NCBI GenBank assembly: GCA_030390025.1
Contig: JASTWF010000329.1
Location: 310,001 to 374,000, forward strand
Direction: 5' to 3'
Source: Squalus acanthias
Lineage: Eukaryota
DNA length: 64,000 nt
Made by a program: the position numbers and the translations under genes. Below the pieces are notes generated by a model that ran no database searches, was not told where the DNA came from, and saw only the letters and a list, made by a program, of their open reading frames with translations. Positions 9,101-64,000 of the stretch are shown piece after piece. The first letter of the stretch is position 1; each line of letters starts with the position of its first letter.

Positions 9101-9475
9101 GAAAGGCCGCATTAGTGATTGGAATTTAATTTACAAGGAATGCATTGAGCACTGAACCTTGTTCATTCTAGCAGTTAGAGTGTGTTTCTGCTGAACTTAA
9201 TAACCCCTATACCTGGGCTGGAGATTAATATTCTGTACAAATATTGAATACATCAGCTATGTTTCAAACTGACAGTCTGTCGAATAGTTGATCAGAGGAG
9301 ACGAATTGATGTTGTTAAAGACTGTTCTATTTGTGGGCCCTTTCCAACTCTAACTTATATCACTTCTCACCTCGTTCATCCTCTACCACATCAAATCCCA
9401 AGCTTGTTCTATTTGAGTACATGGCTTGTGGTTGTCAGAGACTGAACTGCAGTGTCTCACTGTACACTGATCTGA

Positions 9476-10134
9476 CTCACGCGGTGCGGAGAGGAGCGGG
9501 CAGATCGGAGGACCTCTCCGTAGGACTGCTCCTGGGCCTGGCCAAAAAAGGCCATCAACTGGTCCAGGCAGCAGGTAGTCGAGGGGGTCGTTCGGCCCAA
9601 TTGCCTGCCACTCTTCCGCGGCCATGTTCGCGCCCGGGTGGCCCTGGAGATGGAGCACGCGGTGTGGGCCGGCACCCTTGAGGCCTTCCGCGACCGGTGG
9701 GCGCCGCGGGGACTGGAGTGCATCATCACCCCGGCCAACCAAATTTTAATTTAATTTCTTAAGGTTCCTTTAAAGTTTTATTAATTTACAGTCAATTTTG
9801 TTTAATCACCCCAATAAAAGAGTACATTCATCTGACTCACTCGGTGCGGAGGGGAGCAGGCAGATCGGAGGACCTCCTCATAGGACTGCTCCTGGGCCTG
9901 GCCAAAAGGCCATTAACTCGTCCAGGCAGCGGGCGGTCGAGGGGGTTGTTCAGCCACGTTTGCGCCCGGGTGGCCCTGGAGATGGAGCACGCGGTGTCCG
10001 CGACCGGTGGGCACCACAGGGACTAAAGTGCATCATCACCCCCGGCAACCAATTTTTAATTTAATTTATTAAGTTTAATTTAATGTATTTTTGTTAAGTT
10101 ACAGTTTATTTGTTTATGGGTTGCTTAAAAAGAG
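9476..10134 (+). mobile_element. Two tandem 5'-truncated Tx1 3' fragments (9476-9822, 9836-10134)
   Basis: Both match the ORF2 C-terminus of the full-length Tx1 (VRRGAGRSEDLLVGLLLGLAKK) and end in aaaagag. A 13-bp repeat, tacactcatctga, occurs at 9463, 9823 and 10135. Confidence 0.88.
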
Positions 10135-10980
10135 TACACTCATCTGAAATTCCTTTGAACCACCCTTTATAGAACTATCTTGTATAAGATTTGCAATCCG
10201 TTATTTTCTGTATCATTTAACCGTTTTTGGATCCGATTTCGTAAAAACTCCTTCACACATACTGCATGTGATCGCCTTTGAAATGTTCTGATCTTTGTCA
10301 TTGTCATTGCTGATTTTGATGGTCGCTTTGATTCAATCTCTTGTTATTAACATACCTTGCACTATTTCTTTAATTGAGATCATTTTTTCTGATACTTCCT
10401 TTATCAGGTCTTTAGCGCCTCCATTGATCCCTTTTAATAATCCTTCATTTGGGTTTAGGGGCTGGGGTTCAGGTTAGGATGTTAGGCTTATGAGACAGTG
10501 ATTAGGGATAGAAACCACTATTGACAACGTCAGTGTCACTAGACATGTTCTCTTTCATTTCATGGTGTTTTAACATCACGCAGATGAGTCAGAAAACAGC
10601 CTCATGAATTGTTCATTCAAAGAACCTTCTTTCTGGCCCGAGCCTGATTTCCTCTCTTCTTTCACATCTCTACATTTGACACAGAAAAAGACATCAGGGT
10701 CATTAGATTTTGGGACAAGAACAGGCGGATCCAGGTGTTGTTCTGGTTACATCCAATCTTCGGCCTGCCTGAAAAGGGCTTCTGACAATAACCTGTCACC
10801 AGGCCCCACCAGTAACCATCTGATTCCAACGTCATATCTTCATCCATTACCTGCCCTCACTGGAGCTGGTTTCACCACCATGACCATTCCCCATACAGAG
10901 GCTCTCTGATTCCCATTTATAGACTCAGTGTAAATGATCCCTGGATTCGGTATCGCAGTGTAAGTCGTCCCTGGATTTGG

Positions 10981-40046: not shown

Positions 40047-40186
40047 GGTATTTTTTCACTTCACCTGACGAAGGAGCAGGGCTCCGAAAGCTTTTGATTT
40101 CAAATAAAACTGTTGGACAAAAGACCTGGTGTTGTGCGACTTCTCATTTTTGTCCACCCCAGTCCAACACCGGCATCTCAGCATCA
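40047..40186 (+). mobile_element. 140-bp hammerhead-bearing mini-element (Penelope-type terminal repeat); unoccupied Tx1 target
   Basis: tcac-CTGACGA-aggagc-agg-gctcc-GAAA-gctt at 40061-40093, followed by AATAAA. 11-bp TSD cagttatttga (40036, 40187). Empty site in the paralog near 8655. Confidence 0.82.
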
Positions 40187-45999: not shown

Positions 46000-46405
46000 T
46001 GCCCCATTCACACTGGAGGAGCCCAGTGCGCAGGCGCGGTTCCCGCCTGTATTTGGAGCATGCGCAGTGTCACTGTGATCGGAGCCGGGCGAGTGCGGAA
46101 AAGCTGAAAGGTCGGGGTCGCGATTTTGGCGCCGATTACGAATCAGCGGGGCGCAGGGAGGTAACGAACCCGGCGGATGAGCTTCATAAACACCTGGCGT
46201 AGGCCGCAAGCCCCGAATGAGAACCTACAGGTTCCGCGTTTGCAGCTCCGAGGCTTTTTCCCGGGAAAAGGCCCAGGTTAACGGCGGCCATCTTTGTAAA
46301 GAAAAGCTGCGGTTTTGTTCGTTTCCCTCTTGTTTCACCGAGCAGTACCGCGCATGCGCCGCCATCTTTCTAAAGGGACCAGTACTGAGCGGGGCTTCAG
46401 GGTCC
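46000..46405 (+). promoter_or_regulatory. CpG-rich promoter of ZNF-B''
   Basis: Same module as 15020-15375, with gcgcatgcgc adjacent to cgccatctt. Confidence 0.7.
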
Positions 46406-46864: not shown

Positions 46865-47066
46865 GGTGGTGAAAACTGGGAGCGGAGAGCAAACTGTCTT
46901 GAGACGTGCGATGTGTTTGGATTTTAGCACAGGGAGGAGGGACAATGTGTGGGATGGGGATTTGGAGGAACAAGAGAGGAAAGAATATTCCATAGAAACT
47001 AGAATTGTCTGTTCTGAATTTCTGTCCTGTACTTACAGTGATGAGTTTTGTAAACTTATTTTGCAG

Positions 47067-48098
47067 GGTATTGGAAAGGGAGGATTTGAAGAAGGGAAAC
47101 TCAAACCAAATATCAAGTCAAGATCTGACAGCGTCACTCGATTCATTAGGAACTGAATATCATCGGCCTTTGAATGTGGAAGGAGAAATGTTTGTTCTGT
47201 CTGTGGGAAAAGATTTCAAACATCAGTGTGACTGGAAAAGCACCGAGACACACACACCCGAGTGAGAGTGTTCCAGTGCACTGGCTGTGGAAAGTGCTTT
47301 AACCAGTTACACAGCCTGAAAAAACATCGCACCGTTCACAGCGGGGAGAAACCGGACACGTGTTCTGTGTGACGAGGCTTCAACAGATCATCCAACCTGG
47401 AGAGACAAGAGGACACCCGCACCACAGAGAAACCGTGGAAATGTGGGGACTGCGGGAAGGGATTCAGTTACCCGTCCCAGCTGGAAATTCATCAGCGCAG
47501 TCACACCAGGGAGAGGCCGTTCACCTGCTCTGAGTGTGGGAAGGGATTCACTCAGTCATCCGACCTGCTGGCACACCAGCGAGTTCACACCGGGGAGAGG
47601 CCGTTCACTTGCTCAGAGTGTGGGAAGGGATTCACCTGTTCATCCCACCTCCTGAAACACCAGCGAGTTCACACCGGGGAGAGGCCGTTCACCTGCTCCG
47701 AGTGTGGGAAGGGATACACCCGTTCATCCGACCTGCTGATTCACCAGCGAGTTCACACTGGGGAGAGGCCGTTCACCTGCTCCGAGTGTGGGATGGGATT
47801 CACCCGTTCATCACACCTCCTGAAACACTATCGAGTTCACACCGGGGAGAGGCCATTCACCTGCTCCGAGTGTGGGAAGGGATTCACCCGTTCAACCGAC
47901 CTGCTGATTCACCAGCGAGTTCACACTGGGGAGAGGCCGTTCACCTGCTCCGAGTGTGGGAAGGGATTCACTACTTCATCCAGCCTGCTGACACACCAGC
48001 GCGTTCACACTGGGGAGAGGCCATTCCTCTGCTCCGTGTGTGGGAAGGGATTCACTCAGTCATCCAACCTGCTGACACACCATCGAGTTCACAAGTGA
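47067..48098 (+). pseudogene. C2H2 zinc-finger gene ZNF-B'' (8 open 3' fingers, disrupted 5' part)
   Basis: Acceptor tttgcag at 47066. A stop near 47370 arises from a 3-nt deletion. The first in-frame ATG after it is at 47793. Confidence 0.7.
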
Positions 48099-48194
48099 CT
48101 GCAGGGGTTGGATTTTGATATTGCTGCTGTTAATCACTTCCAGGACTGAACCATGATCATTCTGACATTTGAGGTTTGTTTCTGCTGATGTTAT

Positions 48195-49033
48195 TTACCC
48201 CTGTTACTGGGCTGGAGTTCAATATTCTGGATATATGTCGAATAAATCAGCTTTGCATTAAACACATTGTTGTGGATTTTGTCGTTCCCACCTGAGTGTT
48301 TAGCATCACCTGGCTGGAGCTCAGAAAGGACAATCTGGGGGGAGGATCGTACGGCAGGAACAGAACTACAGCCGAGACACAGTCCTTCAGGGCCACACTG
48401 AGAGGGGCAAACAGCACTTTGGTCTTTCTCGTCTCTCTTCACTGACAGTTATGTCCCCGTGCAGGTTAATCTTGAGGCCTGTAAGGAATGTGTCCCAGCC
48501 GCTCTCTCCCATGGGTCAGAGCTCCTAGGCACTGAACAGAAGGCTCCTTTACAACTGAGTTTAGAGTCAGGAAGAACAACGGTGAATGCTGGAAACGTGC
48601 TGTCAAATCAGAGATTGGTGTCAAACTGCGATCTGTTCCTGACTGAAAGTGAAACGGCAAGGTTAAGTTTCCAGTCTCAAATTGACTGGTAATTATTCCA
48701 CGAAGATTTAATATGTGTGTGTGACAGTCCTGAGTCTACCATTTTAAGGCAGGTGTTAGCTCATTTAAAATAAACCCGTTTAAAATAAATTGATTAAAGT
48801 CTGCATTAAAATAACAGAGGGAGGAGTTCACAGGAGCCTGTTAACTGCTGGTACAATTATACAACAGACATATGATTACCAGATAAAGAAGGACCTGCAG
48901 CGTGTTTCCAGGAATTCCCTGTTTTATTGATGTGTGCGTGTTAGACACCAGGATAACTAAAGATACACGACCCTGAACATCCACGGGGTTACTCCAGGAT
49001 CACTCCCGCTGCGGAACTCCACCACTGACCCTG
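48195..49033 (+). repeat. Direct duplicate of ZNF downstream region 42700-42950 plus 43865-44450
   Basis: Long near-identical runs. The CR1 at 42985-43855 is missing from this copy. Confidence 0.85.
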
Positions 49034-49528
49034 CACCAATCATCACCCACTGGAGGTTTATATCAGGAGCTTCTGTGTGATGGTGAGGTGATCACTGGAC
49101 AATAAAGTGCAGAGACTGGTGGGTGGCTGCTCATTATCCTCGGTGTGATTTAATCCCCTTTCCCACTGAATACTGCGGACAGACAGGATCACCTTGGGAA
49201 CTGAATGGTCAGTGTGACATCACTTTCTAAACAAGAGCCCACAAGACAATGGGTTCTCAATAAATGTTAAAGGGATTCAACGCTCTGAAGTTACACTGTG
49301 AATAAAGGAAATAAAATGCTGATCAGTAATTGGTGAAGATAATTTATCTCTGTGGAACGCACTCACAAACATTAAGAATGATGAGTTTTGTTTACACACT
49401 CACACATATAACAAACACTTTGTGTGAGCTCTTTTCAGTTGTTCTGTTTAACCCGATGAAGTACTTGATGTGGCCTTTAGGACCCTGCGGCAGCCCATCC
49501 GGCGGGGCCCGCTGGGTCAGGATATAAA

Positions 49529-49632
49529 GATGTGGAGATGCCGGCGTTGGACTGGGGTGGACAAAAATGAGAAGTCGCACAACACCAGGTTATAGTCCAA
49601 CAGTTTTATTTGAAATCACAAGCTTTCGGAGC
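49529..49632 (-). mobile_element. Left part of the hammerhead mini-element interrupted by Tx1 (remainder at 63931-63998)
   Basis: Reverse complement of 40081-40185. Confidence 0.85.
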
Positions 49633-50602
49633 TGCTGACGAAGGAGCAGAAGCAGCAGAGTGGTGGTCTCTGTGAGCAGGAAGAGGAGAAGGAGAAGGAG
49701 ACCAGACAGCAGACCACCACCAACACAACCAACAACCACAACAACTGAGGTGCCTGGAGAGAGAGGACAGGAGAGGAGAGGAGAAAGAAAAAAAGGCCAA
49801 GGCCATCAACAACAGAGGAGAGGCCTTTCCACACTGCCTCCTCAATTGGCCTCCATTTTAGGAGAGGGAGAGAGGGGAGAAAACAACACAACATCATCTG
49901 TTTGGAAGGAGGGAGGAAGGAAAGAACAGCTACAGGTGGGTGTGATTCTGGGGCACTCTCCCAGAGACTTTGTTTTGTAGGTGGGGGGAGGAAAGAAGAA
50001 AAAGAAGAAGGCCGGAACATCCAAGGGGTGTGTGTGTGTGTGGCTTTTGTAAAAGCTAGGCCGCACACACCATATTAAACACCCCTTTCCCATTGCCTGA
50101 CCTGGGACAGCTGGAGCTGCCTAGGTGAAGTCCCCAATTAATTTAATATTATTGGGCATCGTTAAGACCTGGTGCAGGACTGAGCCTGGGCATCTCCAGC
50201 TATCCCAGGTGAAGACATCTTCTCCCCCCACCAGAAGACCACCACCAAAGACTTTTTACATCGGAGAGTGCACCCCCCTGCCAACACCCACCCACCCACC
50301 ATCCTGAGTGGCGACCCTGCCCTTGCGGCTTCCCTCCTTCCCACCCCCCTCTCTCTCTCTCTTTGTCTCTTGTCTCTCTCTGCCTCTCTCTCTAAGAGGC
50401 ACCTCAATTAACTTTTTATTAAGTACCCATTGAGCAGAGGGGAGAAGGCCCCTCTCCTAATTAATTCATAAAAAGGGAGAGGTGTGCCTTCAATTTAAGA
50501 GCTCCCTCTGCTCAGGGGAAAACTAAAACAAAAAAACCGAGGCCATTAACACCTTCAGGCCTGTGACTTGGGGTGAGTGTAGCCCTTAAAGAACCCTCCA
50601 TT

Positions 50603-52756
50603 ATGGCGACCACATCTTCGCCGGTGGCGGGGGCAGCGAGGACATACGCAAGCGTGGCAGCCGCGGCCACGGCCGCAGCCACGAGTCCTCCTGTTACCCC
50701 GTCACCTTTTACCCTCCTTACGAGGAAGAATGGGGTCAAGAGCTACACTCACCCCAACATGACTATAGAGGCGTGTGTAAAAGCCATGGCTGGGGTTGTC
50801 GGCCCTTCAGCCATCGTCGCCGCCTCTAAAATGTACGGCAAGGCTGTGTTCTTCCTGGGGTCGGAGCGGGCGGTGTCCCTGGCCATCGAGAAGGGGCTCA
50901 CCGTGGGCGGGACCTTCCTGCCGGTGGACCCCCTTGAGGCCACCGCGCAAAGGATTGTGGTTTCCAACGTCCCGCCCTTTGTTCCGGGTGAGCTCCTCCT
51001 CCCCCACCTACGTCAACTGGGGGAGGTGAGGTCGGGGATCACACCCATCCCGCTCGGCTTCCGGGAAGCCAGCCTTCGGCACGTCTTCTCCTTCCGGCGC
51101 CAGCTTTTCGTCCGGCTGGCGCGGGAGGAGGACGCGGATGGCGCGTTCACGGTGCTCCACGGGGGGACCGCCCACCGCGTCTTCTGGACCTCGGACGGCG
51201 TGCGGTGCTACGCCTGTAAGGAGGTGGGGCACGTCCGCAAAAACTGCCCCGCCTCCAAGGCCGCCACGACACCTGGCGCGGCCAGGGTTGGCGCCGCCGC
51301 CCCCCCTCCCCCTGATGCTGTCCGCGCGTCGACGGCGACGGATGCGCGGTCGGAATCGGAGGCCAACACCACCACGGCCTCCGGCGGGGAGGAGGGAGAG
51401 CGTCCGGGGGGAAGGAAGGCGCGTAGGAAAAATAAACATCTAAGGGCGGATCCCCTCGTGGAGGAAACATCGGAGTTGACCGAACTCACGCCTGAGTATA
51501 TCGCGGAGTTGGTCGGGACGCATGAGACTGGGGGGGTCCTCGTGCCCGGGCCCGTGACCGTGACCGCAACTGCTGAGGCAGCTAAATCAAGACCTGCGGC
51601 CGGGCTCGGGCCCGAGGGGCCCAAGAAACCCAGTCGTCGGAAGGGGGCAGAGAGGGAGGCCCCAGCAGACATGGAGGCCTCCCCCTCTCCGGGCCCCAAC
51701 TTGTTAAAAAGAAAGCTCCGCCCCCAGCAGGAGGACTGCGAGGAGGAAGGTCCCTCCGCAAAAGGGGGGCAGTCGCCCGCCGCGGGTGCTGCGCCCCACC
51801 CCACCACCGTCATCGTCGCGCGCGATCGGCAGGGGTCGTCTGTCCCTCGGGAGGGTGAGACAGCCGAGTCTGTCCGACCTGTGCCTCCCGGGGATGGGGA
51901 AGAGACCCTGCCCGTGGGGGGGGGGCGCGGAACAACCCGCGGAGGGAAATGTAGTTACGGAACCGTTGCTCCTCGCCGGGTCGGGCGTCCTGGGGACTGG
52001 GGCGGGCGAGGCCAAAGAGGCTGAAGCCGAGCCCGCCTTTTATAACCCAGACATCTCCCAGGGACTGCTCGACCTGGTGGAGGAGTGTAGCAATCCCCAG
52101 CCCGCTGGGTCGGAGGTTGGTGGCGGGGAGACGGAAAGCCCCCTGACTCCGTCTCTGTTGTTGGCGCCGGACGTGCTGGAGGAATTTGGGATTATTTTCT
52201 CCCCGGTTTCTCCGGTCGCCCCGGCGCCTGAGGCGGGGGGGGGCCCCGAACCGCCGCCGCCTCCCGGCCCGGCGCCCCTGAAGGAGCCCAGGGTGGACTC
52301 CTCTGCCACCGATCCTGGGGGTGGGATCGTGACGGAGGCGGGGCCGGCCGGTGCGGCCGAGCCGTTCGCTGCACCCGTGTGACGGACGGGTTGGCCGCCG
52401 GTGACGACCTCCCGGAGGAGGACGGGGACTCGGTGTTGGGCATCGAGGACGATTTGGAGTCCATCGGCAGCGAGGCGATGGACGCCCTCGTGCCCTTCAC
52501 CGACTCTCCCCTCATCCCCGTAGGGGAACTCCGGGATTTTATGGCCATGAGCCAGGGTCGTCACAAGAAGATCCGGCTGGCCCTCGACAAGTGGTCGGAG
52601 CTGGCGCTGCTCGTCGTGTCCGTCCGCGCCGCCGTTAAAATCATGGGCGCGGACAAGGACGTTGGCCGGCTCGAGCTGCGTCGGCTCAAGACGTTCCACA
52701 CTGGGCTGCTGAGGGAGTGGCGGTCGTCAGTGACCGCGCTCCCTCCCCTCCGTTAG
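50603..52756 (+). CDS. Tx1 ORF1 (CCHC zinc knuckle), two frameshifts (~51920 G-run, ~52375)
   Basis: CYACKEVGHVRKNC, with N-terminal ASKMYGKAVFFL and VSNVPPF motifs. Confidence 0.8.
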
Positions 52757-52781
52757 GTAGAGGTTGCACTATGCTTCTGAG

Positions 52782-55700
52782 ATGAAGATAACCATAGCCA
52801 GCCTCAACATCAACGGCAGCAGGGAGGCGCGCCGTAGATTCAATAACTTCTCGGTCCTTCGGGACGGGAAATATGCGGTGTGCTTCCTGCAAGAAACCCA
52901 CACCGTTCCGGGAGACGAGGCCACGTGGCTCCTGGAGTGGCAAGGAGGGGTCAGCATGAGTCACCTCTCAACAATTCCTGCGGGGTGGCTGTCTTGCTGG
53001 CCCCGCATTTTCAGCCGGAGATCTTGAGGGTCAAGGAGCACGTGCCGGGCCGCTTGCTCCAGGTCACTGTTCGCCTGGGAGGCGTGCCGCTCCATTTAGT
53101 GAACGTGTACGCCCCCCGGACCGGTGCGCAGCAAGTGCGCTTCTTCGGAGAAGTGTCCGCTCTTCTGGGCTCCATCGACGTGGGCGAGTGCGTCATCCTC
53201 GGGGGGGATTTCAATTGTACCCTCGAGGCGCGGGACCGGTCGGGTCCCCCGCGAAGCCCGGCGGCGATGGAGAAGTTGCGGGACCTGGTCGGGTCCTTCG
53301 ACTTGGTGGACGTCTGGCGAAATCTCCATCCCGACTCCAGCGCCTTCACGAGCGTGAGGTCTGGAGGAGGAAGGTCCAGAATCGACCGCCTTTACATTTC
53401 CCGGGCGTACGTCTCCTGCGTTCCGGCGGCTTCCATGCGGCCGGTGCCGTGCACGGACCACCACCTGGTGTGGGCGGAGCTCGCTCCGCTGCGCGCGCGG
53501 GGGGGGTCCGCGTACTGGCATTTTAACAACCTGCTGCTGGAGGACGCGCGGTTCCGGGATTCGTTTCGCCGGTTCTGGGCCGACTGGAGAAGGAAGCGGG
53601 GAGGCTTCCCCTCCTTGAGGCTATGGTGGGACGTGGGCAAGGCTCACGTCCGCGTCTTCTGTCAGGAGTACGCGAAGGGGTCGACCAAGAGGCGGGAGGC
53701 CCGGGTCGGGCGATTGGAGAAAGAAGTGCTCGACCTGGAGTCCCGTCTCGGTCAAGTCGTCGAGGACCCGGCCCTGCGGAAGGTGTACGAAGAGAAGAAG
53801 GGCGCGCTGAAGGACCTGCAGCTGGTCGGGTCCCGAGGCGCGTACGTGAGGTCGCGGATCCAGTTCCTGCGGGACCTGGACCGCGGCTCCCCCTTCTTCT
53901 ACTCGCTGGAAAAAAGACGGGGGGTCCGTAAGCAGCTCTTGGGGCTGCTGGCCGACGACGGATCTCTGGTCTCGGATCCGGAGGGCATCAGCGCGGAGGC
54001 CCGGGCCTATTACGGGGCTCTGTTCTCTTCGGATCCGTCCAGCGAGGATGCGCGCAGAGTTTTGTGGGAGGACCTGCCGAAGGTCGGCCCGGAGGGCGCC
54101 GAGAATTTAGAAGCTCCGCTAAGCCTGGCGGAGCTGACCGGCGCCCTGCGCCAGCTCTCGAGGGGCAAGTCCCCGGGGCTGGACGGGCTGACCGTGGAGT
54201 TCCACAGGGCGTTCTGGGACGTCTTGGGGGACGACTACGCGCGGGTCCTGGGGGAAAGTCTGGCGACCGGGGAGATGCCCCTCTCTTGGCGCAGGGCGGT
54301 CATCGTCCTGCTGCCCAAGAAGGGCGATCTCCGCCTACTTAAGAACTGGCGCCCGGTCTCCCTCCTCAGCACGGACTACAAAATTTTCGCCAGGGCTATG
54401 TCTGCTCGCCTTGGCACCGTGCTGGCCCGCATGATCCACCCCGACCAGTCCTACACGGTCCCGGGCCGGAGTATCCACGATAACATCCATCTGGTCCGGG
54501 ACCTGGTCCACCATTCCCAGAGGGCTGGTCTGTCGGTCGCCTTCCTTTCCCTGGATCAGGAGAAGGCGTTCGACAGGGTGGATCACGAGTATCTTTTCGG
54601 GACTCTGCGCGCATTCGGGTTCGGGACGCATTTCGTCGCCCGGATCCGACTTCTGTACGCCGCCGCGGAGTGTCTCATTAAAGTTAACGGGTCTTTGACG
54701 GCGCCCCTTCGCTTCGGGAGGGGGGTGCGTCAGGGATGCCCCATGTCCGGTCAGTTATACGCCGTTTGCGTGGAGCCTTTCCTGCGCCTCTTGCGGAAGA
54801 GGTTGACGGGACTGGCTCTGCAAGGGCCGGGCGTGGAGGTGGTCCTCTCGGCTTACGCCGATGACGTGCTCCTCGCGGTCACGGATCCCGTCGACTTGCG
54901 GAGGATGCGAGAATGCCAGCAGATTTACTCAGACGCATCCTCCGCCAAGATCAACTGGGAGAAATGTTCTGGACTCCTGGTGGGCCCATGGCGGGTGGAC
55001 TCCCTGCCGGAGGAGTTCGGGCCTTTCGCCTGGAGCACCACGCACCTCCTCTACCTGGGAGTCTACCTCAGCCCGGCCGAGGACGCCTGGCCGGCGAACT
55101 GGCAAGAGCTGGAGGCCAAAGTCACCGCTCGCCTAGGGCGCTGGACAGGACTGCTCCGAGTGTTGTCCTACAGGGGTCGAGCGCTGGTCATAAACCAGCT
55201 GGTGGCCGCCATGTTGTGGTACCGGTTGGTCACTTTGATCCCTCCCCCTGCGTTTGTCGCCAAGATGCAGAAGAAGCTCGTCGACTTCTTCTGGGACAAA
55301 AGGAAGCACTGGGTCTCTGCCGCGGTTTTGAGTCTCCCGCTTAGGGAGGGCGGTCAGGCGCTGGTGTGCCTTCGCACCCAGGCGGCGACTTTCCGTCTTC
55401 AGACGCTGCAGAGATACCTGTACGTGGAGAATCCTCCTAGGTGGCGTGCGCTGGCGACGTATTTCTTCCGCCAGCTGCACGGCCTCAATTACGACACGCA
55501 GCTCCTGTTTGTGAGAGTGGGTGGCACGCGTGCCAGCCTGCGGGAGCTGCCTGTCTTCTACCAGGAACTGCTATGGGTTTGGAACAGCGTCGCCTCCGAG
55601 CGCAGTTCTCCCCCGTCAGGAGCGGCGGCCGTCCTTCGGGAGCCGCTGTTCAGGAATCCGCACCTCCACGACCGCGGGTTCGGCTGGCTGGCGGAGGGCA

Positions 55701-56680
55701 GGGCTGTGCCCGGTAAGGTGACCAGAGTCGGGGACCTGCTCGATGGCGGAGGAGCGGGCTGGATGGCGCCGGAGGAGTTGGCGAGGCGCATGTCCTGGGT
55801 CAACGTCCGGCTCGCGGTCAAAGCCATCGAGTCGCTAAAAGTGGCACTGGGCCCCGTCTCCACTAGGTGTGTCGAGGAGGCTCAAGCACGTGGGGCGATC
55901 CCGTCCGAACTGACCCCCGTTCGGACGGAATTCCTTATCGGCGCCCGGCCCCGAATCCTCCCTCGGGAGCCGCCGCCTCACCACTTGAGCCTTCTCGGAG
56001 AAATGCCCTCCGTGCCCTTTCAATCCGCACGGAGGCGTTTCCTGTACGGGCTGCTCCTGCACACTCTCCACTTTGCCATCTTCGTCTGCCGTCCGGACAC
56101 GCCTTGGCGTACCATCCTGCCGTCCGGCGGAGGCGAAGGTCCCCATTGGAAGGCTCTCTACGCGGGAGTCTTCCCTTGTTCTATTGGGGACTTGGCCTGG
56201 AGGGTGTTGCACGGAGCAGTCCCGTGCAATAGGATTTTAAGTAGGTTTACGGACTCCCAGGCTGCTTGCCATTTCTGCGGCCTGGAGGAGTCCGTCTATC
56301 ACATTTATGTTGAGTGTGAGAGGTTGCAGCCCCTCTTTCATTATTTGAAGGGGCTGCTCCTCAATTTCTGGTTGCACTTCAGCCCCACGCTCCTGATCTA
56401 CGGTCACCCGGTGCGGAGGGGAGCGGGTAGGTCGGAGGACCTCCTCGTAGGACTGCTCCTGGGCCTGGCCAAGAAAGCCATTAATTGGTCCAGGCAGCGG
56501 GCGGTCGAGGGGGTCGTTCGGCCCGATTGCCTGCCTCTCTTCCGCGGCCATGTTCGCGCCCGGGTGGCCCTGGAGATGGAGCACGCGGTGTCCGCCGGCA
56601 CGCTTGAGTTTTTCCGCGACCGGTGGGCGCCGCGGGGGCTGGAGTGCATCGTCACCCCGGACTTCCAAATTTTGATTTGA
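52782..56680 (+). CDS. Tx1 ORF2 (APE endonuclease, RT, C-terminal zinc finger), one frameshift at ~52970
   Basis: SLNING, FLQETH, GGDFN, DH; GVRQGCPMS, YADD; CHFC-x8-H-x4-C. Confidence 0.9.
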
Positions 56681-57766
56681 TTTATTAAGTTTCATTTAAA
56701 GTTTTAATTGATTTACAGTAAATTTGTGTTGTCCAACCAAAAAGAGGAACACCAGGTTATAGTCCAACAGTTTTATTTGAAATCACAAGCTTTCAGAGCT
56801 GCTGACGGAGGAGCAGCAGCAGCAGAGTGGTGGTCTCTGTGACCAGGAAGAGGAGAAGGAGACCAGACAGCAGACCACCACCAACAACCAACAACCACTA
56901 CTGAGGTGCCTGGAGAGAGAGGACAGGAGAGGAGAGGGAAAAGAAAGGAAGGCCAAGGCCATTAACAACAGAGGAGAGGCCTTTCCATCACTGCCTCCTC
57001 AATTGGCCTCCATTTTAGGAGAGGGAGAGAGGGGAGAAAACACCAACAAACATCATCTGTTTGGAAGGAGGGAGGAAGGAAAGAAAGAACAGCTACAGGT
57101 GGGTGTGATTTCTGGGGCACTCTCCCAGAGACTTTGTTTTGTAGGTGGGGGGAGGAAAGAAGAAAAGAAGAGGGCCGGAACATCCAAGGGGTGTGTGTGT
57201 GTGTGTGTGGCTTTTGTAAAAGCTAGGCCGCACACACCATATTAAACACCCCTTCCCATTGCCTGACCTGGGACAGCTGGAGCTGCCTAGGTGAAGTCCC
57301 CAATTAATTTAATCTAATTGGGCATCGTTAAGACCTGGTGCAGGACTGAGCCTGGGCATCTCCAGCTATCCCAGGTGAAGACATCTTCTCCCCCCACCAG
57401 AAGACCACCACCAAAGACTTTTATTACATCGGAGAGTGCACTCCCTGCCAACACCCACCCACCCACCATCTTGAGTGGCGACCCTGCCCTTGCGGCTTCC
57501 CTCCTTCCCACCCCCCTCTCTCTCTCTCTTTGTCTCTTGTCTCTCTCTGCCTCTCTCTCTAAGAGGCACCTCAATTACTTTTAATTAAGTACCCATTGAG
57601 CAGAGGGGAGAAGGCCCCTCTCCTAATTAATTCATATAAAGGGAGAGGTGTGCCTTCAATTTAAGAGCTCCCTCTGCTCAGGGGAAAACAAAAACAAAAA
57701 ACCGAGGCCATTAACACCTTCAGGCCTGTGACTTGGGGTGAGTGTAGCCCTTAAAGACCCTCCATT

Positions 57767-59931
57767 ATGGCGAGCACATCTTCGTCGGTGGCGGGGGCAG
57801 CGAGGACGTATGCGAGCGTGGCAGCCGCGGCCACGGCCGCAGCCACGAGTCCTCCTGTTACCCCGTCACCTTTTACCCTCCTTACGAGGAAGAATGGGGT
57901 CAAGAGCTACACTCACCCCAACATGACTATAGAGGCGTGCGTAAAAGCCATGGCTGGGGTTGTCGGCCCTTCAGCCATCGTCGCCGCCTCTAAAATGTAC
58001 GGCAAGGCTGTGTTCTTCCTGGGGTCGGAGCGGGCGGTGTCCCTGGCCATCGAGAAGGGGCTCACCGTGGGCGGGACCTTCCTGCCGGTGGACCCCCTTG
58101 AGGCCACCGCGCAAAGGATTGTGGTTTCCAACGTCCCGCCCTTTGTTCCGGGTGAGCTCCTCCTCCCCCACCTACGTCAACTGGGGGAGGTGAGGTCGGG
58201 GATCACACCCATCCCGCTCGGCTTCCAGGAAGCCAGCCTTCGGCACGTCTTCTCCTTCCGGCGCCAGCTTTTCGTCCGGCTGGCGCGGGAGGAGGACGCG
58301 GACGGCGCGTTCACGGTGCTCCACGGGGGGACCGCCCACCGCGTCTTCTGGACCTCGGACGGCGTGCGGTGCTACGCCTGTAAGGAGGTGGGGCACGTCC
58401 GCAAAAACTGCCCCGCCTCCAAGGCCGCCACGACACCTAGCGCGGCCAGGGCTGGCGCCGCCGCCCCCCCTCCCCCTGATACTGTCCGCGCGTCGAAGGC
58501 GACGGATGCGCGGTCGAAATCGGAGGCCAACACCATCACGGCCTCCAGCGGGGAGGAGGGAGAGCGTCCGGGGGGAAGGAAGGCGCTTAGAAAGAATAAA
58601 CACCTAAGGGCGGATCCCCTCGCGGAGGAAACATCCGATTTGACAGAACTCACGCCCGAGTACATCGCGGAGTTGATCGGGACGCGGGAGACGGGGGGGG
58701 TCCTCGTGCCCGGGCCCGTGACTGTGACCGCAACTGCCAAGGCAGCTAAATCAAGACCTGCGGCCGGGCTCGGGCCCGAGGGGCCCAAGAAACCCAGTCA
58801 TCGGAAGGGGGCAGAGGGGGAGGCCCCAGCAGACATGGAGGCCTCCCCCTCTCCGGGCCCCAATATGTTAAAAAGGAAGCTCGACCCCCAGGAGGAGGAC
58901 TGCGAGGAGGAAGGTCCCTCCGCAGAAGGGGAGTCGTCGCCCGCCGCGGGTACTGCGCCCCACCCCACCACCGTCATCGTCGCGCGCGAGCGGCAGGGGT
59001 CGCCTGTCCCTCGGGAGGGTGAGACAGCCGAGTCTGTCCGACCTGTGCCTCCCGGGGATGGGGAAGAGACCCTGCCCGTGGGGGGGGGGCGCGGAACAAC
59101 CCGCGGATATTAATATTAATAATAAAAATCCAGAACCGTTGCTCCTCGCCGGGTCGGGCGTCCTGGGGACTGGGGCGGGCGAGGCCAAAGAGGCTGAAGC
59201 CGAGCCCGCCTTTTACAACCCAGATATCTCCCAGGGACTGCTCGACCTGGTGGAGGAGTATAACAATCCCCAGCCCGCTGGGTCGGAGGTTGGTGGCGGG
59301 GAGACAGAAAGCCCCCTGACTCCGTCTCTGATGTTGGCGCCGGACGTACTGGAGGACTTTGAGATTATTTTCTCCCCGGTTTCTCCGGTCGCTCCGGCGC
59401 CTGAGGCGGGGGGGGGGCCCCGAACCGCCGCCGCCTCCCGGCCCGGCGCCCCTGAAGGAGCCCAGGGTGGACTCCTCTGCCACCGATCCTGGGGGTGGGA
59501 TCGTGACGGAGGCGGGGCCGGCCGGTGCGGCCGAGCCGTTCGCTGCACTCCGTGCGACGGACGGGTTGACCGCCGGTGACGACCTCCCGGAGGAGGACGG
59601 GGACTCGGTGTTGGGCACCGAGGACGATTTGGAGTCCATCGGCGGCGAGGTGATGGACGCCCTCGTGCCCTTCACCGACTCTCCCCTCATCCCCGTAGGG
59701 GAACTCCGGGATTTTATGGCCACGAGCCAGGGTCGTCACAAGAAGATCCGGCTGGCCCTCGACAAGTGGTCGGAGCTGGCGCTGCTCGTCGTGTCCGTCC
59801 GCGCCGCCGTTAAAATCATGGGCGCGGACAAGGACGTTGGCCGGCTCGAGCTGCGTCGGCTCAAGAGTTTCCACACTGGGCTGCTGAGGGAGTGGCGGTC
59901 GTCAGTGACCGCGCTCCCTCCCCTCCGTTAG
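57767..59931 (+). CDS. Tx1 ORF1, copy 2, frameshifts in two G-runs (~59085, ~59412)
   Basis: Same motifs as copy 1. Confidence 0.8.
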
Positions 59932-59956
59932 GTAGAGGTTGCACTATGCTTCTGAG

Positions 59957-62900
59957 ATGAAGATAACCATAGCCAGCCTCAACATCAACGGCAGCAGGGA
60001 GGCGCGCCGTAGATTCAATAACTTCTCGGTCCTTCGGGACGGGAAATATGCGGTGTGCTTCCTGCAAGAAACCCACACCGTTCCGGGAGACGAGGCCACG
60101 TGGCTCCTGGAGTGGCAAGGAGGGGTCAGCATGAGTCACCTCTCAACAATTCCTGCGGGGTGGCTGTCTTGCTGGCCCCGCATTTTCAGCCGGAGATCTT
60201 GAGGGTCAAGGAGCACGTGCCGGGCCGCTTGCTCCAGGTCACTGTTCGCCTGGGAGGCGTGCCGCTCCATTTAGTGAACGTGTACGCCCCCCGGACCGGT
60301 GCGCAGCAAGTGCGCTTCTTCGGAGAAGTGTCCGCTCTTCTGGGCTCCATCGACGTGGGCGAGTGCGTCATCCTCGGGGGGGATTTCAATTGTACCCTCG
60401 AGGCGCGGGACCGGTCGGGTCCCCCGCGAAGCCCGGCGGCGATGGAGAAGTTGCGGGACCTGGTCGGGTCCTTCGACTTGGTGGACGTCTGGCGAAATCT
60501 CCATCCCGACTCCAGCGCCTTCACGAGCGTGAGGTCTGGAGGAGGAAGGTCCAGAATCGACCGCCTTTACATTTCCCGGGCGTACGTCTCCTGCGTTCCG
60601 GCGGCTTCCATGCGGCCGGTGCCGTGCACGGACCACCACCTGGTGTGGGCAGAGCTCGCTCCGCTGCGCGCGCGGGGGGGGTCCGCGTACTGGCATTTTA
60701 ACAACCTGCTGCTGGAGGACGCGCGGTTCCGGGATTCGTTTCGCCGGTTCTGGGCCGACTGGAGAAGGAAGCGGGGAGGCTTCCCCTCCTTGAGGCTATG
60801 GTGGGACGTGGGCAAGGCTCACGTCCGCGTCTTCTGTCAGGAGTACGCGAAGGGGTCGACCAAGAGGCGGGAGGCCCGGGTCGGGCGATTGGAGAAAGAA
60901 GTGCTCGACCTGGAGTCCCGTCTCGGTCAAGTCGTCGAGGACCCGGCCCTGCGGAAGGTGTACGAAGAGAAGAAGGGCGCGCTGAAGGACCTGCAGCTGG
61001 TCGGGTCCCGAGGCGCGTACGTGAGGTCGCGGATCCAGTTCCTGCGGGACCTGGACCGCGGCTCCCCCTTCTTCTACTCGCTGGAAAAAAGACGGGGGGT
61101 CCGTAAGCAGCTCTTGGGGCTGCTGGCCGACGACGGATCTCTGGTCTCGGATCCGGAGGGCATCAGCGCGGAGGCCCGGGCCTATTACGGGGCTCTGTTC
61201 TCTTCGGATCCGTCCAGCGAGGATGCGCGCAGAGTTTTGTGGGAGGACCTGCCGAAGGTCGGCCCGGAGGGCGCCGAGAATTTAGAAGCTCCGCTAAGCC
61301 TGGCGGAGCTGACCGGCGCCCTGCGCCAGCTCTCGAGGGGCAAGTCCCCGGGGCTGGACGGGCTGACCGTGGAGTTCCACAGGGCGTTCTGGGACGTCTT
61401 GGGGGACGACTACGTGCGGGTCCTGGGGGAAAGTCTGGCGACCGGGGAGATGCCCCTCTCTTGGCGCAGGGCGGTCATCGTCCTGCTGCCCAAGAAGGGC
61501 GATCTCCGCCTACTTAAGAACTGGCGCCCGGTCTCCCTCCTCAGCACGGACTACAAAATTTTCGCCAGGGCTATGTCTGCTCGCCTTGGCACCGTGCTGG
61601 CCCGCATGATCCACCCCGACCAGTCCTACACGGTCCCGGGCCGGACAATCCACGACAACATCCATCTGGTCCGGGACCTGGTCCACCATTCCCAGAGGGC
61701 TGGTCTGTCGGTCGCCTTCCTTTCCCTGGATCAGGAGAAGGCGTTCGACAGGGTGGATCACGAGTATCTTTTCGGGACTCTGCGCGCATTCGGGTTCGGG
61801 ACGCATTTCGTCGCCCGGATCCGACTTCTGTACGCCGCCGCGGAGTGTCTGATTAAAGTTAACGGGTCTTTGACGGCGCCCCTTCGCTTCGGGAGGGGGG
61901 TGCGTCAGGGATGCCCCATGTCCGGTCAGTTATACGCCGTTTGCGTGGAGCCTTTCCTGCGCCTCTTGCGGAAGAGGTTGACGGGACTGGCTCTGCAAGG
62001 GCCGGGCGTGGAGGTGGTCCTCTCGGCTTACGCCGATGACGTGCTCCTCGCGGTCACGGATCCCGTCGACTTGCGGAGGATGCGAGAATGCCAGCAGATT
62101 TACTCGGACGCATCCTCCGCCAAGATCAACTGGGAGAAATGTTCTGGACTCCTGGTGGGCCCATGGCAGGTGGACTCCCTGCCGGAGGAGTTCGGGCCTT
62201 TCGCCTGGAGCACCACGCACCTCCTCTACCTGGGAGTCTACCTCAGCCCGGCCGAGGACGCCTGGCCGGCGAACTGGCAAGAGCTGGAGGCCAAAGTCAC
62301 CGCTCGCCTAGGGCGCTGGACAGGACTGCTCCGAGTGCTGTCCTACAGGGGTCGAGCGCTGGTCATAAACCAGCTGGTGGCCGCCATGTTGTGGTACCGG
62401 TTGGTCACTTTGATCCCTCCCCCTGCGTTTGTCGCCAAGATGCAGAAGAAGCTCGTCGACTTCTTCTGGGACAAAAGGAAGCACTGGGTCTCTGCCGCGG
62501 TTTTGAGTCTCCCGCTTAGGGAGGGCGGTCAGGCGCTGGTGTGCCTTCGCACCCAGGCGGCGACTTTCCGTCTTCAGACGCTGCAGAGATACCTGTACGT
62601 GGAGAATCCTCCTAGGTGGCGTGCGCTGGCGACGTATTTCTTCCGCCAGCTGCACGGCCTCAATTACGACACGCAGCTCCTGTTTGTGAGAGTGGGTGGC
62701 ACGCGTGCCAGCCTGCGGGAGCTGCCTGTCTTCTACCAGGAACTGCTATGGGTTTGGAACAGCGTCGCCTCCGAGCGCAGTTCTCCCCCGTCAGGAGCGG
62801 CGGCCGTCCTTCGGGAGCCGCTGTTCAGGAATCCGCACCTCCACGACCGCGGGTTCGGCTGGCTGGCGGAGGGCAGGGCTGTGCCCGGTAAGGTGACCAG

Positions 62901-63855
62901 AGTCGGGGACCTGCTCGATGGCGGAGGAGCGGGCTGGATGGCGCCGGAGGAGTTGGCGAGGCGCATGTCCTGGGTCAACGTCCGGCTCGCGGTCAAAGCC
63001 ATCGAGTCGCTAAAAGTGGCACTGGGCCCCGTCTCCACTAGGTGTGTCGAGGAGGCTCAAGCACGTGGGGCGATCCCGTCCGAACTGACCCCCGTTCGGA
63101 CGGAATTCCTTATCGGCGCCCGGCCCCGAATCCTCCCTCGGGAGCCGCCGCCTCACCACTTGAGCCTTCTCGGAGAAATGCCCTCCGTGCCCTTTCAATC
63201 CGCACGGAGGCGTTTCCTGTACGGGCTGCTCCTGCACACTCTCCACTTTGCCATCTTCGTCTGCCGTCCGGACACGCCTTGGCGTACCATCCTGCCGTCC
63301 GGCGGAGGCGAAGGTCCCCATTGGAAGGCTCTCTACGCGGGAGTCTTCCCTTGTTCTATTGGGGACTTGGCCTGGAGGGTGTTGCACGGAGCAGTCCCGT
63401 GCAATAGGATTTTAAGTAGGTTTACGGACTCCCAGGCTGCTTGCCATTTCTGCGGCCTGGAGGAGTCCGTCTATCACATTTATATTGAGTGTGAGAGGTT
63501 GCAGCCCCTCTTTCATTATTTGAAGGGGCTGCTCCTCAATTTCTGGTTGCACTTCAGCCCCACGCTCCTGATCTACGGTCACCCGGTGCGGAGGGGAGCG
63601 GGTAGGTCGGAGGACCTCCTCGTAGGACTGCTCCTGGGCCTGGCCAAGAAAGCCATTAATTGGTCCAGGCAGCGGGCGGTCGAGGGGGTCGTTCGGCCCG
63701 ATTGCCTGCCTCTCTTCCGCGGCCATGTTCGCGCCCGGGTGGCCCTGGAGATGGAGCACGCGGTGTCCGCCGGCACGCTTGAGTTTTTCCGCGACCGGTG
63801 GGCGCCGCGGGGGCTGGAGTGCATCGTCACCCCGGACTTCCAAATTTTGATTTGA
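59957..63855 (+). CDS. Tx1 ORF2, copy 2, same frameshift at ~60145
   Basis: Only four amino-acid differences from copy 1 spotted by eye in the 1266-aa frame. Confidence 0.9.
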
Positions 63856-64000
63856 TTTATTAAGTTTCATTTCAAGTTTTAATTGATTTACAGTAAATTT
63901 GGTTTTTTTTTTTGTCCAACCAAAAAGAGGAACACCAGGTTATAGTCCAACAGTTTTCTTTGAAATCACAAGCTTTCGGAGCGCTGTTCCTTCGTCAGAC

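What the first reader, a model, noticed from the sequence alone, without database searches (positions are those of the whole stretch)
49529..64000. Tandem Tx1 retrotransposons inserted into a hammerhead-ribozyme mini-element: candidate new target-specific Tx1 family
Seen: the 52-mer aacaccaggttatagtccaacagttttatttgaaatcacaagctttcggagc occurs at 49581, 56748 and 63931 (the latter two each differ from the first by one base), bracketing two 7.1-kb Tx1 copies. Removing the elements rebuilds the reverse complement of the 140-bp element at 40047-40186, which has a hammerhead core (CTGACGA-stem-GAAA). Known: Tx1-clade elements often specialise on multicopy targets (Tx1L in a DNA transposon, Keno in U2 snRNA, Dewa in tRNA spacers), and Penelope-like elements carry minimal hammerheads in their terminal repeats. 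Inference: this family may use an abundant ribozyme-bearing repeat as a safe-haven target. I do not recall this pairing being described. Caveat: this is one locus, and related Tx1 fragments at 9.5-10.1 kb sit in a different sequence.
Basis: partly seen in the sequence, partly recalled or inferred. Interest (0 to 1): 0.88.

Follow-up and report, generated by a model that had tools for sequence, protein, structure and literature searches.

The report
Tx1 LINEs targeting Penelope hammerhead tails
Two head-to-tail copies of a Tx1-type jumping gene sit at one fixed nucleotide inside the ribozyme-bearing end of another retroelement (a Penelope-like element), and the same junction recurs across this genome, so this is a target-specific LINE family with a target not found in the literature searched.

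Summary
The 52-mer ("B") occurs three times and brackets two Tx1 units of 7,167 and 7,183 bp. The layout is A-B-Tx1-B-Tx1-B-C, and A-B-C is the reverse complement of the 140-bp element at 40047-40186.

The core interpretation holds. In 30 genomic Tx1 3' ends sampled without regard to flank, 26 are followed by the same repeat at the same nucleotide. ORF2 is 50% identical over 96% of its length to Xenopus Tx1.

Three refinements:
- **The target is a Penelope-like element (PLE) tail.** The "mini-element" is the 3'-terminal ~140 nt of a PLE. It carries a published-type minimal hammerhead that Rfam does not detect. Tx1 lies antisense to it, 39 nt past the predicted ribozyme cut.
- **The upstream A-B travels with the Tx1.** It is not a plain target-site duplication. 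Each insertion therefore rebuilds its own target, which can explain the frequent tandem arrays.
- **Both window copies share a private frameshift** in the endonuclease start. They are nearly identical in ORF2 but diverged in the 5' part, so they are not two clean independent insertions.

Tx1 families that target other transposons are already known. This is a new member of that kind with a new target. Interest is moderate.

The parts
49529..49580 (+). A: antisense copy of the last 52 nt of the Penelope-like element (PLE) tail. It forms the 5' terminus of Tx1 copy 1, carried by the element or merged with the target's own A.
   Evidence: Homology among copies starts within 2 nt of 49529 in 24 of 29 loci. 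The A haplotype TCA is seen in 16 of 36 Tx1-linked heads against 1 of 35 uninterrupted tails.
49581..49632 (+). B copy 1: the 52-mer, antisense to the PLE tail from the helix II 3' strand to the insertion point.
   Evidence: The upstream B is always of the Tx1-linked type, whatever the downstream B type.
49633..49649 (+). 17 nt (tgCTGACGAAGGAGCAG): the 5' half of the hammerhead in inverted orientation, at the start of the Tx1 5' UTR.
   Evidence: present at this junction in the listed copies.
49633..56753 (+). Tx1 copy 1 body. 5' UTR to about 50602. ORF1 from ATG 50603, split over three frames (50567-52024, 51708-52382, 52232-52756). ORF2 start (MKITIASLNINGS) at 52782 in a different frame from the main ORF2 frame 52847-56680. 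3' UTR ends ...aaaaagagg aacacc.
56748..56799 (+). B copy 2, between the two Tx1 units. Its first 6 nt (aacacc) are shared with the Tx1 3' end.
56800..63936 (+). Tx1 copy 2 body (main ORF2 frame 60022-63855), with the same frameshift in the endonuclease start as copy 1.
63931..63982 (+). B copy 3, belonging to the interrupted PLE tail.
63983..64000 (+). C: continuation of the PLE tail (antisense of the hammerhead core and helix II 5' strand), cut by the window end.
40047..40186 (-). Uninterrupted 140-nt, 5'-truncated PLE tail copy with minimal hammerhead (core 40065-40093). It is flanked by the 11-bp duplication cagttatttga (40036-40046 and 40187-40197).
9467..10135 (+). Two 5'-truncated 3' fragments of a different Tx1 subfamily (89% and 74% identical to the 3' end here), in tandem. 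Not part of the PLE-targeting family.

Best explanation
The region is a head-to-tail pair of ~7.2-kb Tx1-clade LINEs. They sit antisense in the 3'-terminal tail of a Penelope-like element (PLE), at one fixed nucleotide between ...GTCGCAC and AACACC... That point is 39 nt downstream of the predicted cut site of the PLE's minimal hammerhead and about 52 nt from the end of the PLE copy. Because 5'-truncated PLE copies keep this tail, nearly every PLE copy offers the site.

Proposed mechanism (inferred): the Tx1 endonuclease nicks the PLE-sense strand at GGTGTT^GTGCGAC. The RNA's 3' end (...AAAAAGAGN-AACACC, no poly(A)) pairs with the nicked end and primes reverse transcription. The RNA's own 5' end is a 104-nt copy (A+B) of the target's antisense strand, running from the PLE terminus to 52 nt beyond the nick. 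The cDNA end can therefore anneal to the target's A and give a seamless 5' junction, while B ends up on both sides.

Each insertion thus rebuilds an intact A|B site at its own 5' end. That site can be hit again, or the flanking B repeats can recombine, giving tandem arrays.

Shown: the anatomy, the constancy of the site, and that A-B travels with the element. Inferred: the nick position, the annealing step, and the order in which arrays grow.
For: Tx1 identity:
- ORF2 has Exo_endo_phos, RVT_1 and zf-RVT.
- It is 50% identical over 96% of its length (1,319 bits) to Xenopus 'Transposon TX1 149 kDa protein', against 259 bits for human L1 ORF2p.

Target specificity:
- The query 56560-56747 contains no flank. 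I classified its 30 loci by eye.
- 19 continue into B and then PLE sequence; 5 into full B and the next Tx1; 1 into 15 nt of B and a subfamily-2 Tx1; 1 into 10 nt of B and a truncated Tx1 array that itself ends in B-C.
- 1 abuts a truncated Tx1 and 3 are non-PLE (L035, L042, L052).
- That gives 26 of 30, or 25 of 29 if the duplicate pair L050/L051 counts once. One of the 30 is the window itself.
- The downstream PLE parts differ in subfamily and length. Four of them (L039, L044, L056, L058) reach the GIY-YIG coding region, so they are target, not cargo.

The target is a PLE:
- It is a 587-nt unit with one fixed end and variable truncation at the other (lengths 141-587).
- A GIY-YIG-like ORF end lies next to it in 11 loci (its direction relative to the hammerhead strand was traced by hand in L095 and L096 only).
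- Longer homologues carry RVT_1, and one carries RVT_1 plus GIY-YIG.
- The motif has the traits published for PLE minimal hammerheads (PMC4209133, passages).
- 54 of 66 sites are intact. 98.8% of cells are paired, with one compensatory pair.

A-B is carried by the element:
- The upstream B differs from the downstream B in 6 of 6 single elements, by 1-7 nt and by at least 3 nt in 4 of them.
- L098 and L099 have only 24 and 18 nt of A, then unrelated flank.
- Haplotype TCA occurs in 4 of 8 flank-blind elements against 1 of 35 uninterrupted tails.
- Subfamily 2 joins after 15 nt of B (L063, L103, L037).

Arrays:
- 8 of 30 3' ends abut another Tx1.
- 14 of 40 hits to the endonuclease region form 7 same-strand pairs 7.13-7.21 kb apart.
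- No tandem junction seen has A between two bodies.
Against: - Only 30 3' ends and 13 matched 5' ends were examined, out of at least 1,200 candidates. The 5'-junction set (L002-L030) was chosen by likeness to the window.
- 5'-truncated copies carry true-looking duplications of 10-18 nt (L036, L040, L048), so staggered cleavage also occurs. A long staggered cut plus heteroduplex repair could mimic part of the pattern.
- Haplotype TCA is not exclusive to Tx1: 1 uninterrupted tail has it, as does the A upstream of the truncated copy in L040.
- No full-length copy at a clean non-PLE site was recovered. The 5' ends predicted for L042 and L052 showed no Tx1.
- No RNA data show where transcripts start.
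- Rfam does not call the hammerhead. The fold energy is not unusual (z = -1.04). Self-cleavage is untested.
- The two window copies share a private 1-nt deletion, so this particular pair is not evidence for two independent insertions.
Confidence: 0.8

Rival explanations
1. B is an ordinary but unusually long (52-bp) target-site duplication. It would arise from staggered cuts at A|B on one strand and B|C on the other, and the Tx1 RNA would start only at tgctgacgaagg.
For: 5'-truncated copies are flanked by 10-18-nt duplications of the start of B (L036, L040, L048). The three B copies in the window differ by only 1 nt each. Kojima 2015 (PMC4494074, passages) describes tandem Tx1-mobilised insertions 'sandwiching a TSD'.
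Against: The upstream B is the Tx1-linked type while the downstream B is the target's subfamily type, with 3-7 differences in 4 of 6 single elements, although the bodies are 94-99% alike. Partial A (18 or 24 nt) plus B is followed upstream by unrelated flank in L098 and L099. The junction position is specific to each subfamily, at 15 versus 52 nt.
Confidence: 0.15
2. The pair in this window arose, wholly or partly, at the DNA level and not by a second retrotransposition. The route would be unequal crossing-over between the B repeats flanking a single copy, or gene conversion between neighbours.
For: Both copies share a 1-nt deletion that 38 of 40 scored hits lack (401 versus 402 nt). Contigs of all 4 runs laid carry an extra C at 52968. 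ORF2 differs at 10 of 3,905 positions (0.26%).
Against: The 5' UTR and ORF1 differ by 1.4-5.6%. In the first 1.5 kb, copy 1 is closest to L021 (97.7%), not to copy 2, and the two copies share only 2 private variants against 78 differences (that alignment was loose, 2,993 columns). A mosaic therefore fits better than a simple duplication.
Confidence: 0.5
3. One chance insertion into this repeat, later duplicated.
For: None beyond the fact that the window shows a single locus.
Against: The same junctions occur on many contigs with unrelated outer flanks.
Confidence: 0.01
4. Reverse causality: the PLE inserts next to Tx1 ends, or B-C is part of the Tx1 3' end or is 3'-transduced.
For: B follows the Tx1 3' end in most copies.
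Against: The Tx1 is contiguous while the PLE tail is the interrupted partner. The downstream PLE parts belong to several subfamilies and have different lengths, some reaching the GIY-YIG region. Copies at non-PLE sites end at aacac(c) (L035, L042, L052).
Confidence: 0.03
5. The 140-bp element is the head of a tRNA-derived SINE, read in the same sense as the Tx1. I considered this from box-A/box-B-like strings, recalled from memory.
For: It has a sharp boundary at the A end. GGTTATAGTCC resembles a B box (recalled motif, not from any call).
Against: ARAGORN finds no tRNA in 39900-50000. The fixed end behaves as a 3' end: the other end is variably truncated. The unit continues into a GIY-YIG-like ORF on the hammerhead strand.
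Confidence: 0.02

Closest known systems
Tx1L of Xenopus laevis, which inserts into the piggyBac-type element Tx1D (as described in PMC4494074, passages; Christensen et al. 2000 is cited there but I did not read it)
   Same: Same clade: ORF2 is 50% identical over 96% of its length. It is a LINE that inserts at a specific site inside another, abundant transposable element.
   Different: The target here is a Penelope-like retroelement tail, not a DNA transposon. The element carries a 104-nt copy of the target's upstream half, and B (52 nt) is duplicated.
Tx1-Mar families and SINEU of crocodilians (Kojima 2015, PMC4494074, passages)
   Same: Tx1 families that prefer one transposon family (Mariner-N4_AMi; two families prefer LTR retrotransposons). 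Tandem insertions 'sandwiching a TSD' are reported. One SINEU-2B subfamily carries a 5' extension derived from the target transposon, read as transcription from the flanking target. By that paper's criterion (more than 20% of flanks of one kind) the family here qualifies (26 of 30).
   Different: The target class differs (PLE). Here the target-derived 5' part sits on the autonomous LINE itself, is present in essentially all full-length copies examined, and overlaps the insertion point.
Keno, Kibi, Koshi and other target-specific Tx1 lineages (listed in PMC4494074 passages; Dewa and Mutsu appear only as term counts in the listing; Kojima & Fujiwara 2004 not read)
   Same: A safe-haven strategy on multicopy sequences.
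   Different: Those targets are snRNA or rRNA genes and microsatellites.
R2 in 28S rDNA, co-transcribed with its target (as summarised in PMC4494074, passage; the details of 5'-junction annealing are my recollection)
   Same: Upstream target sequence on the element's RNA is thought to help form the 5' junction.
   Different: R2 belongs to a different clade with a restriction-like endonuclease. In R2 the target part does not extend past the insertion point, so no long duplication arises.
PLE minimal hammerheads (Cervera & de la Pena 2014, PMC4209133, passages) and Poseidon of Anolis (Frangieh et al. 2024, PMC11167929, abstract and passages)
   Same: [quoted passage not shown] Copies end 92 nt after the predicted cut. 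In Poseidon, from the reported positions, reverse transcription starts about 85-92 nt after the cut.
   Different: Self-cleavage was not tested here, and Rfam models do not detect the motif.

Membership tests
Tx1 clade of non-LTR retrotransposons | ORF2 with an AP-type endonuclease, a reverse transcriptase and a C-terminal zinc-binding domain | tested here: met
   Exo_endo_phos (E 2.2e-5; only profile positions 68-225, because the N-terminus is in another frame), RVT_1 (E 8.3e-38) and zf-RVT (24.5 bits, below the 27.5-bit cut-off).
Tx1 clade of non-LTR retrotransposons | Closer to the type element Tx1L than to L1 proper | tested here: met
   50% identity, 96% coverage and 1,319 bits to YTX2_XENLA; 259 bits to human L1 ORF2p.
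Tx1 clade of non-LTR retrotransposons | Placement inside the clade in an RT phylogeny with reference families (the RTclass1 approach named in PMC4494074) | not tested
Target-specific Tx1 family (criterion of Kojima 2015: more than 20% of flanks of one kind) | One kind of sequence at the flanks of independent copies | tested here: met
   26 of 30 3' ends abut the same PLE-tail position. 24 of 29 5' junctions begin within 2 nt of the same point, with unrelated outer flanks.
Target-specific Tx1 family | Endonuclease cleaves the target sequence specifically | not testable with these tools
   Needs a nicking assay.
Penelope-like element (the target) | [quoted passage not shown] | tested here: inconclusive
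   Only the C-terminal part lies in the fetched loci. GIY-YIG scores E 4e-4 and 21.1 bits, below the 22.6-bit cut-off, in 1 of 3 ORFs. Homologues of 52-89% identity carry RVT_1, and one of 32% identity carries RVT_1 plus GIY-YIG above the cut-off.
Penelope-like element (the target) | Minimal hammerhead in the terminal repeat, on the element's sense strand | tested here: met
   The motif and its traits match PMC4209133. The motif is on the same strand as the GIY-YIG-like ORF. 54 of 66 sites are intact.
Penelope-like element (the target) | 5'-truncated copies, often with inverted partial copies | tested here: met
   copies of 141-587 nt all keep the same end. Symmetric inverted pairs occur in L080, L081, L084, L087 and L092.
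Hammerhead ribozyme (Rfam models) | Match to an Rfam hammerhead covariance model | tested here: not met
   No hit at gathering score or at E up to 10. Passages of PMC4209133 say such motifs lack helix III/loop 3 and needed a dedicated descriptor, which may be why generic models miss them.
Hammerhead ribozyme (structure) | Helices I and II kept by base pairing across copies | tested here: met
   98.8% of 171 cells are paired (0 of 500 shuffles as high; slid controls 22-48%). One pair changes C-G to U-A in 4 sequences, and several changes are to G-U. The sequences are related, so this is modest support. The MFE fold shows both helices.
Hammerhead ribozyme (activity) | Self-cleavage | not testable with these tools
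   PLE minimal hammerheads are reported to cleave poorly and as dimers (PMC4209133 passages).
tRNA-derived SINE (considered for the 140-bp element) | tRNA-like head at the 5' end of the transcribed strand | tested here: not met
   ARAGORN found none. The conserved end is the 3' end of a PLE.

The most novel reading that the evidence does not exclude
A LINE whose own 5' terminus is a 104-nt mimic of its target, extending 52 nt past the nick. Every insertion then regenerates an intact target site at its head and seeds head-to-tail arrays. The family lives specifically on the hammerhead-bearing tail that every truncated copy of another retroelement class (PLE) retains. If the antisense PLE tail also supplies the Tx1 promoter or start site, the Tx1 would depend on PLE sequence for both landing and expression.
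Probability: 0.45. Interest if true: 0.55.

Novelty: new member of a known kind. Interest (0 to 1): 0.4.

Why it matters
It adds a Penelope-like element tail to the known targets of site-specific Tx1 LINEs, and is a clear case of one retroelement class nesting in another at single-nucleotide precision. The family looks young: 38 of the 40 best hits to the endonuclease region are about 100% identical and lack the frameshift. There are at least ~1,200 candidate copies.

The element could serve for studying how AP-type endonucleases acquire long-sequence specificity. It could also show how target sequence carried on the RNA shapes 5' junctions and array formation. For genome annotation, A-B-Tx1-B arrays and PLE tails should be masked as separate families, not merged into one composite repeat.

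Tried and rejected
- **Rfam.** Scans of the window and of four loci gave no hammerhead. The low-scoring hits (freshwater-1, snoRNAs, lncRNA fragments) are chance.
- **Large fetches.** No usable 5' junction came from 9 of the 20 pieces. L065, L066, L097, L105, L106 and L109 showed no Tx1 5' end. L101, L102 and L104 showed only weak matches (71-75%) to the low-complexity 5' UTR. Those copies are probably truncated or of another length.
- **Expression.** No RNA holder was listed. The four runs laid are only guessed to be RNA and are contigs, so nothing is concluded about transcription or start sites. From I used only DNA-type facts: the extra C at 52968 in contigs of all 4 runs, a subfamily-2 tandem joint, and much higher word depth over the PLE-tail bins than over the Tx1 body. 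The tool warns that word depth is not a copy number.
- **tRNA-SINE reading.** Rejected.
- **Earlier findings of this scan.** None.
- **Literature.** Searches for Tx1 with Penelope, hammerhead or shark found no report of a Tx1 family targeting PLEs. Repbase Reports, Dfam and subscription journals are not in that library, and the supplementary target figures of PMC4494074 were not read, so a prior description cannot be excluded.
- **Pfam.** The local copy lacks PF28514 and PF26215, which are listed for the PLE homologues, so their meaning is unknown to me.
Full report
**Observation.** The 52-mer (called B here) lies at 49581, 56748 and 63931, with 0, 1 and 1 mismatches. None of 100 shuffles gave a match. 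A self-comparison shows 49581-56804 repeated at 56748-63986 with 97.8% identity. The units are 7,167 and 7,183 bp long. Upstream of the first B lie 52 nt (A, 49529-49580). After the third B comes gctgttccttcgtcag (C), up to the window end. A-B-C is the reverse complement of 40047-40186 (93% over the 105 nt aligned).

**The inserted element.** Each unit has a 1,277-codon open frame with Exo_endo_phos, RVT_1 and zf-RVT, and an upstream ORF1 with a CCHC knuckle. The ORF2 product is 50% identical over 96% of its length (1,319 bits) to the Xenopus laevis 'Transposon TX1 149 kDa protein'. Human L1 ORF2p scores 259 bits. I did not run an RT phylogeny with reference families.

**State of the two window copies.** Neither looks autonomous.
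- ORF1 is spread over three frames.
- The ORF2 start (MKITIASLNINGS..., ATG at 52782) is out of frame with the rest of ORF2.
- In the 401-nt stretch 52650-53050, both window copies are 401 nt long, while the other 38 of 40 scored genomic hits are 402 nt.
- Contigs of all four runs laid carry an extra C at 52968.
- The family majority therefore lacks this frameshift.

**What the 140-bp element is.** Uninterrupted copies are common: 40 were scored out of 1,020 candidates, which is a lower bound.
- In 19 dispersed copies, one end is fixed, at TGATGCGGAG in the A-B-C reading. Similarity runs for 141 to 587 nt and then stops, often turning into a mirror-image copy.
- A fixed end with variable truncation at the other end is what target-primed reverse transcription leaves at a 3' end. 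The element's sense strand is therefore the one that carries CTGACGA...GAAA.
- On that strand, just upstream of the 587-nt unit, 11 loci encode the end of an ORF with a ...YIGET...L..R...H motif.
- Pfam GIY-YIG reaches only E 4e-4, below its cut-off, in 1 of 3 ORFs.
- Longer homologues (52-89% identical, mostly from sharks) carry RVT_1, and a 32%-identical one carries RVT_1 plus GIY-YIG.
- RT plus a C-terminal GIY-YIG endonuclease is the canonical Penelope-like element (PLE) architecture, according to the abstract start of PMC8557442 in the listing.
- The copy at 40047-40186 is a 140-nt, 5'-truncated PLE insertion flanked by an 11-bp duplication (cagttatttga). It sits inside another repeat, whose flanks recur in the ten other top-scoring copies (L068-L077; 95-99% over the 144-nt query).

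**The hammerhead.** Rfam finds nothing. The motif nevertheless shows every trait that Cervera & de la Pena list for PLE 'min-HHRs' (PMC4209133, passages):
- the core CUGANGA;
- a G10.1-C11.1 pair and a 5-bp helix II;
- a 4-bp helix I;
- GAAA followed by a palindromic AGCU with no loop 3, which that paper reads as dimeric action.

Of 66 sites in the sequence I held, 54 keep the full pattern, with the variation in the helix II loop. On 19 distinct sequences, 98.8% of pair cells are paired; 0 of 500 shuffles were as high, and slid controls gave 22-48%. One helix I pair changes C-G to U-A in 4 sequences. The sequences are related, so this is modest support. The single-sequence fold shows both helices, but its energy is ordinary (z = -1.04).

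PLE copies here end 92 nt after the predicted cut. In Poseidon of Anolis, the reported positions put the start of reverse transcription about 85-92 nt after the cut (PMC11167929, passages).

**Target specificity.** A query made only of the last 188 nt of the Tx1 body found 45 matches (40 of 1,430 candidates scored). Thirty of them were cut out with their flanks. Reading what follows ...aaaaagagN-aacacc gives:

| What follows the Tx1 3' end | Loci |
|---|---|
| B (19-52 nt), then PLE sequence of several subfamilies and lengths | 19 |
| Full B, then the next Tx1 | 5 |
| 15 nt of B, then a Tx1 of a second subfamily | 1 |
| 10 nt of B, then a truncated Tx1, in an array that ends in B-C | 1 |
| A truncated Tx1 directly | 1 |
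| Unrelated sequence, ending at aacac(c) (L035, L042, L052) | 3 |

- So 26 of 30 use the same nucleotide of the same repeat, always antisense to the PLE.
- The count is 25 of 29 if the duplicate pair L050/L051 counts once. One of the 30 is the window itself.
- On the 5' side, the 172-nt A-B-5'UTR junction recurs in at least 40 scored places of 1,214 candidates.
- Similarity to the window starts within 2 nt of 49529 in 24 of 29 loci and within 11 nt in 28 of 29. The remaining locus, L019, is a duplicate of the whole locus.

**A-B belongs to the Tx1.**
- For six single elements I had both ends. The upstream B is always the Tx1-linked type, while the downstream B follows the target's subfamily. 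There are 7, 4, 3 and at least 5 differences in L061/L041, L064/L044, L098/L059 and L099/L047, and 2 and 1 in L108/L038 and L110/L055.
- In L098 and L099, only the last 24 and 18 nt of A precede B, and unrelated sequence lies upstream. This looks like slight 5' truncation of an element that begins with A.
- Three variable sites in A read T-C-A in 16 of 36 Tx1-linked heads and in 4 of 8 elements sampled blind to the 5' side. They read T-C-A in only 1 of 35 uninterrupted tails.
- A second subfamily joins its own 5' UTR after 15 nt of B (L063, L103, L037).
- No copy shows two A's in a row, and no tandem junction seen has A between bodies.
- I infer that the cDNA end anneals to the target's A and merges with it.
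- Against a purely RNA-borne picture, truncated copies carry 10-18-nt duplications of the start of B (L036, L040, L048). Some stagger between the two strand cuts therefore exists.

**Arrays.** Eight of 30 3' ends abut another Tx1. Fourteen of 40 hits to the endonuclease region form seven same-strand pairs 7.13-7.21 kb apart. Each insertion recreates A|B at its head, and each is flanked by 52-nt direct repeats, so both re-insertion and unequal crossing-over can build arrays.

The window pair is a mosaic.
- ORF2 differs at 0.26% of positions and shares the private frameshift, while the 5' UTR and ORF1 differ by 1.4-5.6%.
- In the first 1.5 kb, copy 1 is closest to another locus, L021 (that alignment was loose).
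- This pair therefore involved DNA-level exchange. It is not clean evidence for two independent hits.

**Comparison with what is known.** Passages of Kojima 2015 (PMC4494074) report the following:
- many Tx1-clade families are target-specific: Tx1L in a piggyBac-type element, Keno in U2, Kibi and Koshi in microsatellites, Tx1-Mar in a Mariner family, and two families in LTR retrotransposons;
- tandem insertions sandwich a duplication;
- one SINEU-2B subfamily carries a 5' extension copied from its target transposon.

The kind of system, and even the array and 5'-extension features, have precedents. The target differs here, and the target-derived 5' part is a fixed component of the autonomous LINE that overlaps the insertion point. 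Five literature searches found no description of a Tx1 family in PLE tails. Repbase Reports, Dfam and that paper's supplementary figures were not seen.

**Verdict.** This is a new member of a known kind, of moderate interest. The mechanism steps (nick site, annealing, array growth) are inferred and can be tested as listed under next steps.

Noticed in passing
window 40036-40197: The 140-nt PLE tail copy has an 11-bp target duplication (cagttatttga). It lies inside a larger repeat whose flanks recur in the ten other top-scoring copies (L068-L077), mostly on small contigs.
   Followed up: partly
window 9400-10230: Two 5'-truncated 3' fragments of another Tx1 subfamily lie in tandem, each preceded by a tacaytsatctga-like string. 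Fragment plus flank recur at 98-100% in all 40 scored hits of 2,488 candidates, so they are fossils inside an amplified larger unit.
   Followed up: partly
window 1-49000: The region is dense with minisatellite arrays (periods 27, 30, 39, 60, 63, 67, 84, 108 nt). Arrays recur in direct and inverted orientation, for example 84-nt arrays at 16.1-17.4, 41.5-42.7 and 47.3-48.2 kb, inverted relative to 5.0-6.5 kb. There are also long inverted repeats of 600-800 nt at 87-96%.
   Followed up: no
L081, L084, L087, L092 (also L040, L046, L054, L055): PLE tail copies often occur as near-symmetric palindromes: a truncated copy joined to its own mirror image at the truncation point.
   Followed up: no
L036 (G000:C17, about 51.121 Mb): An array of at least 6 severely 5'-truncated (~250 bp) Tx1 3' fragments. 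Each ends in aacaccaggt, and the last runs into the PLE tail.
   Followed up: partly
L063, L103, L037; joint in run X1: A second Tx1 subfamily has A plus only 15 nt of B, followed by a different 5' UTR start (cctcagcagcc...). It also occurs in tandem.
   Followed up: partly
window 49633-49649 and 56800-56816: The Tx1 5' UTR begins with the 5' half of the PLE hammerhead in inverted orientation relative to B. This resembles the junctions of inverted PLE pairs and may record how the family acquired its A-B head.
   Followed up: no
L096 2-688 (minus strand): A fragment of an unrelated reverse-transcriptase ORF lies next to the PLE copy.
   Followed up: no
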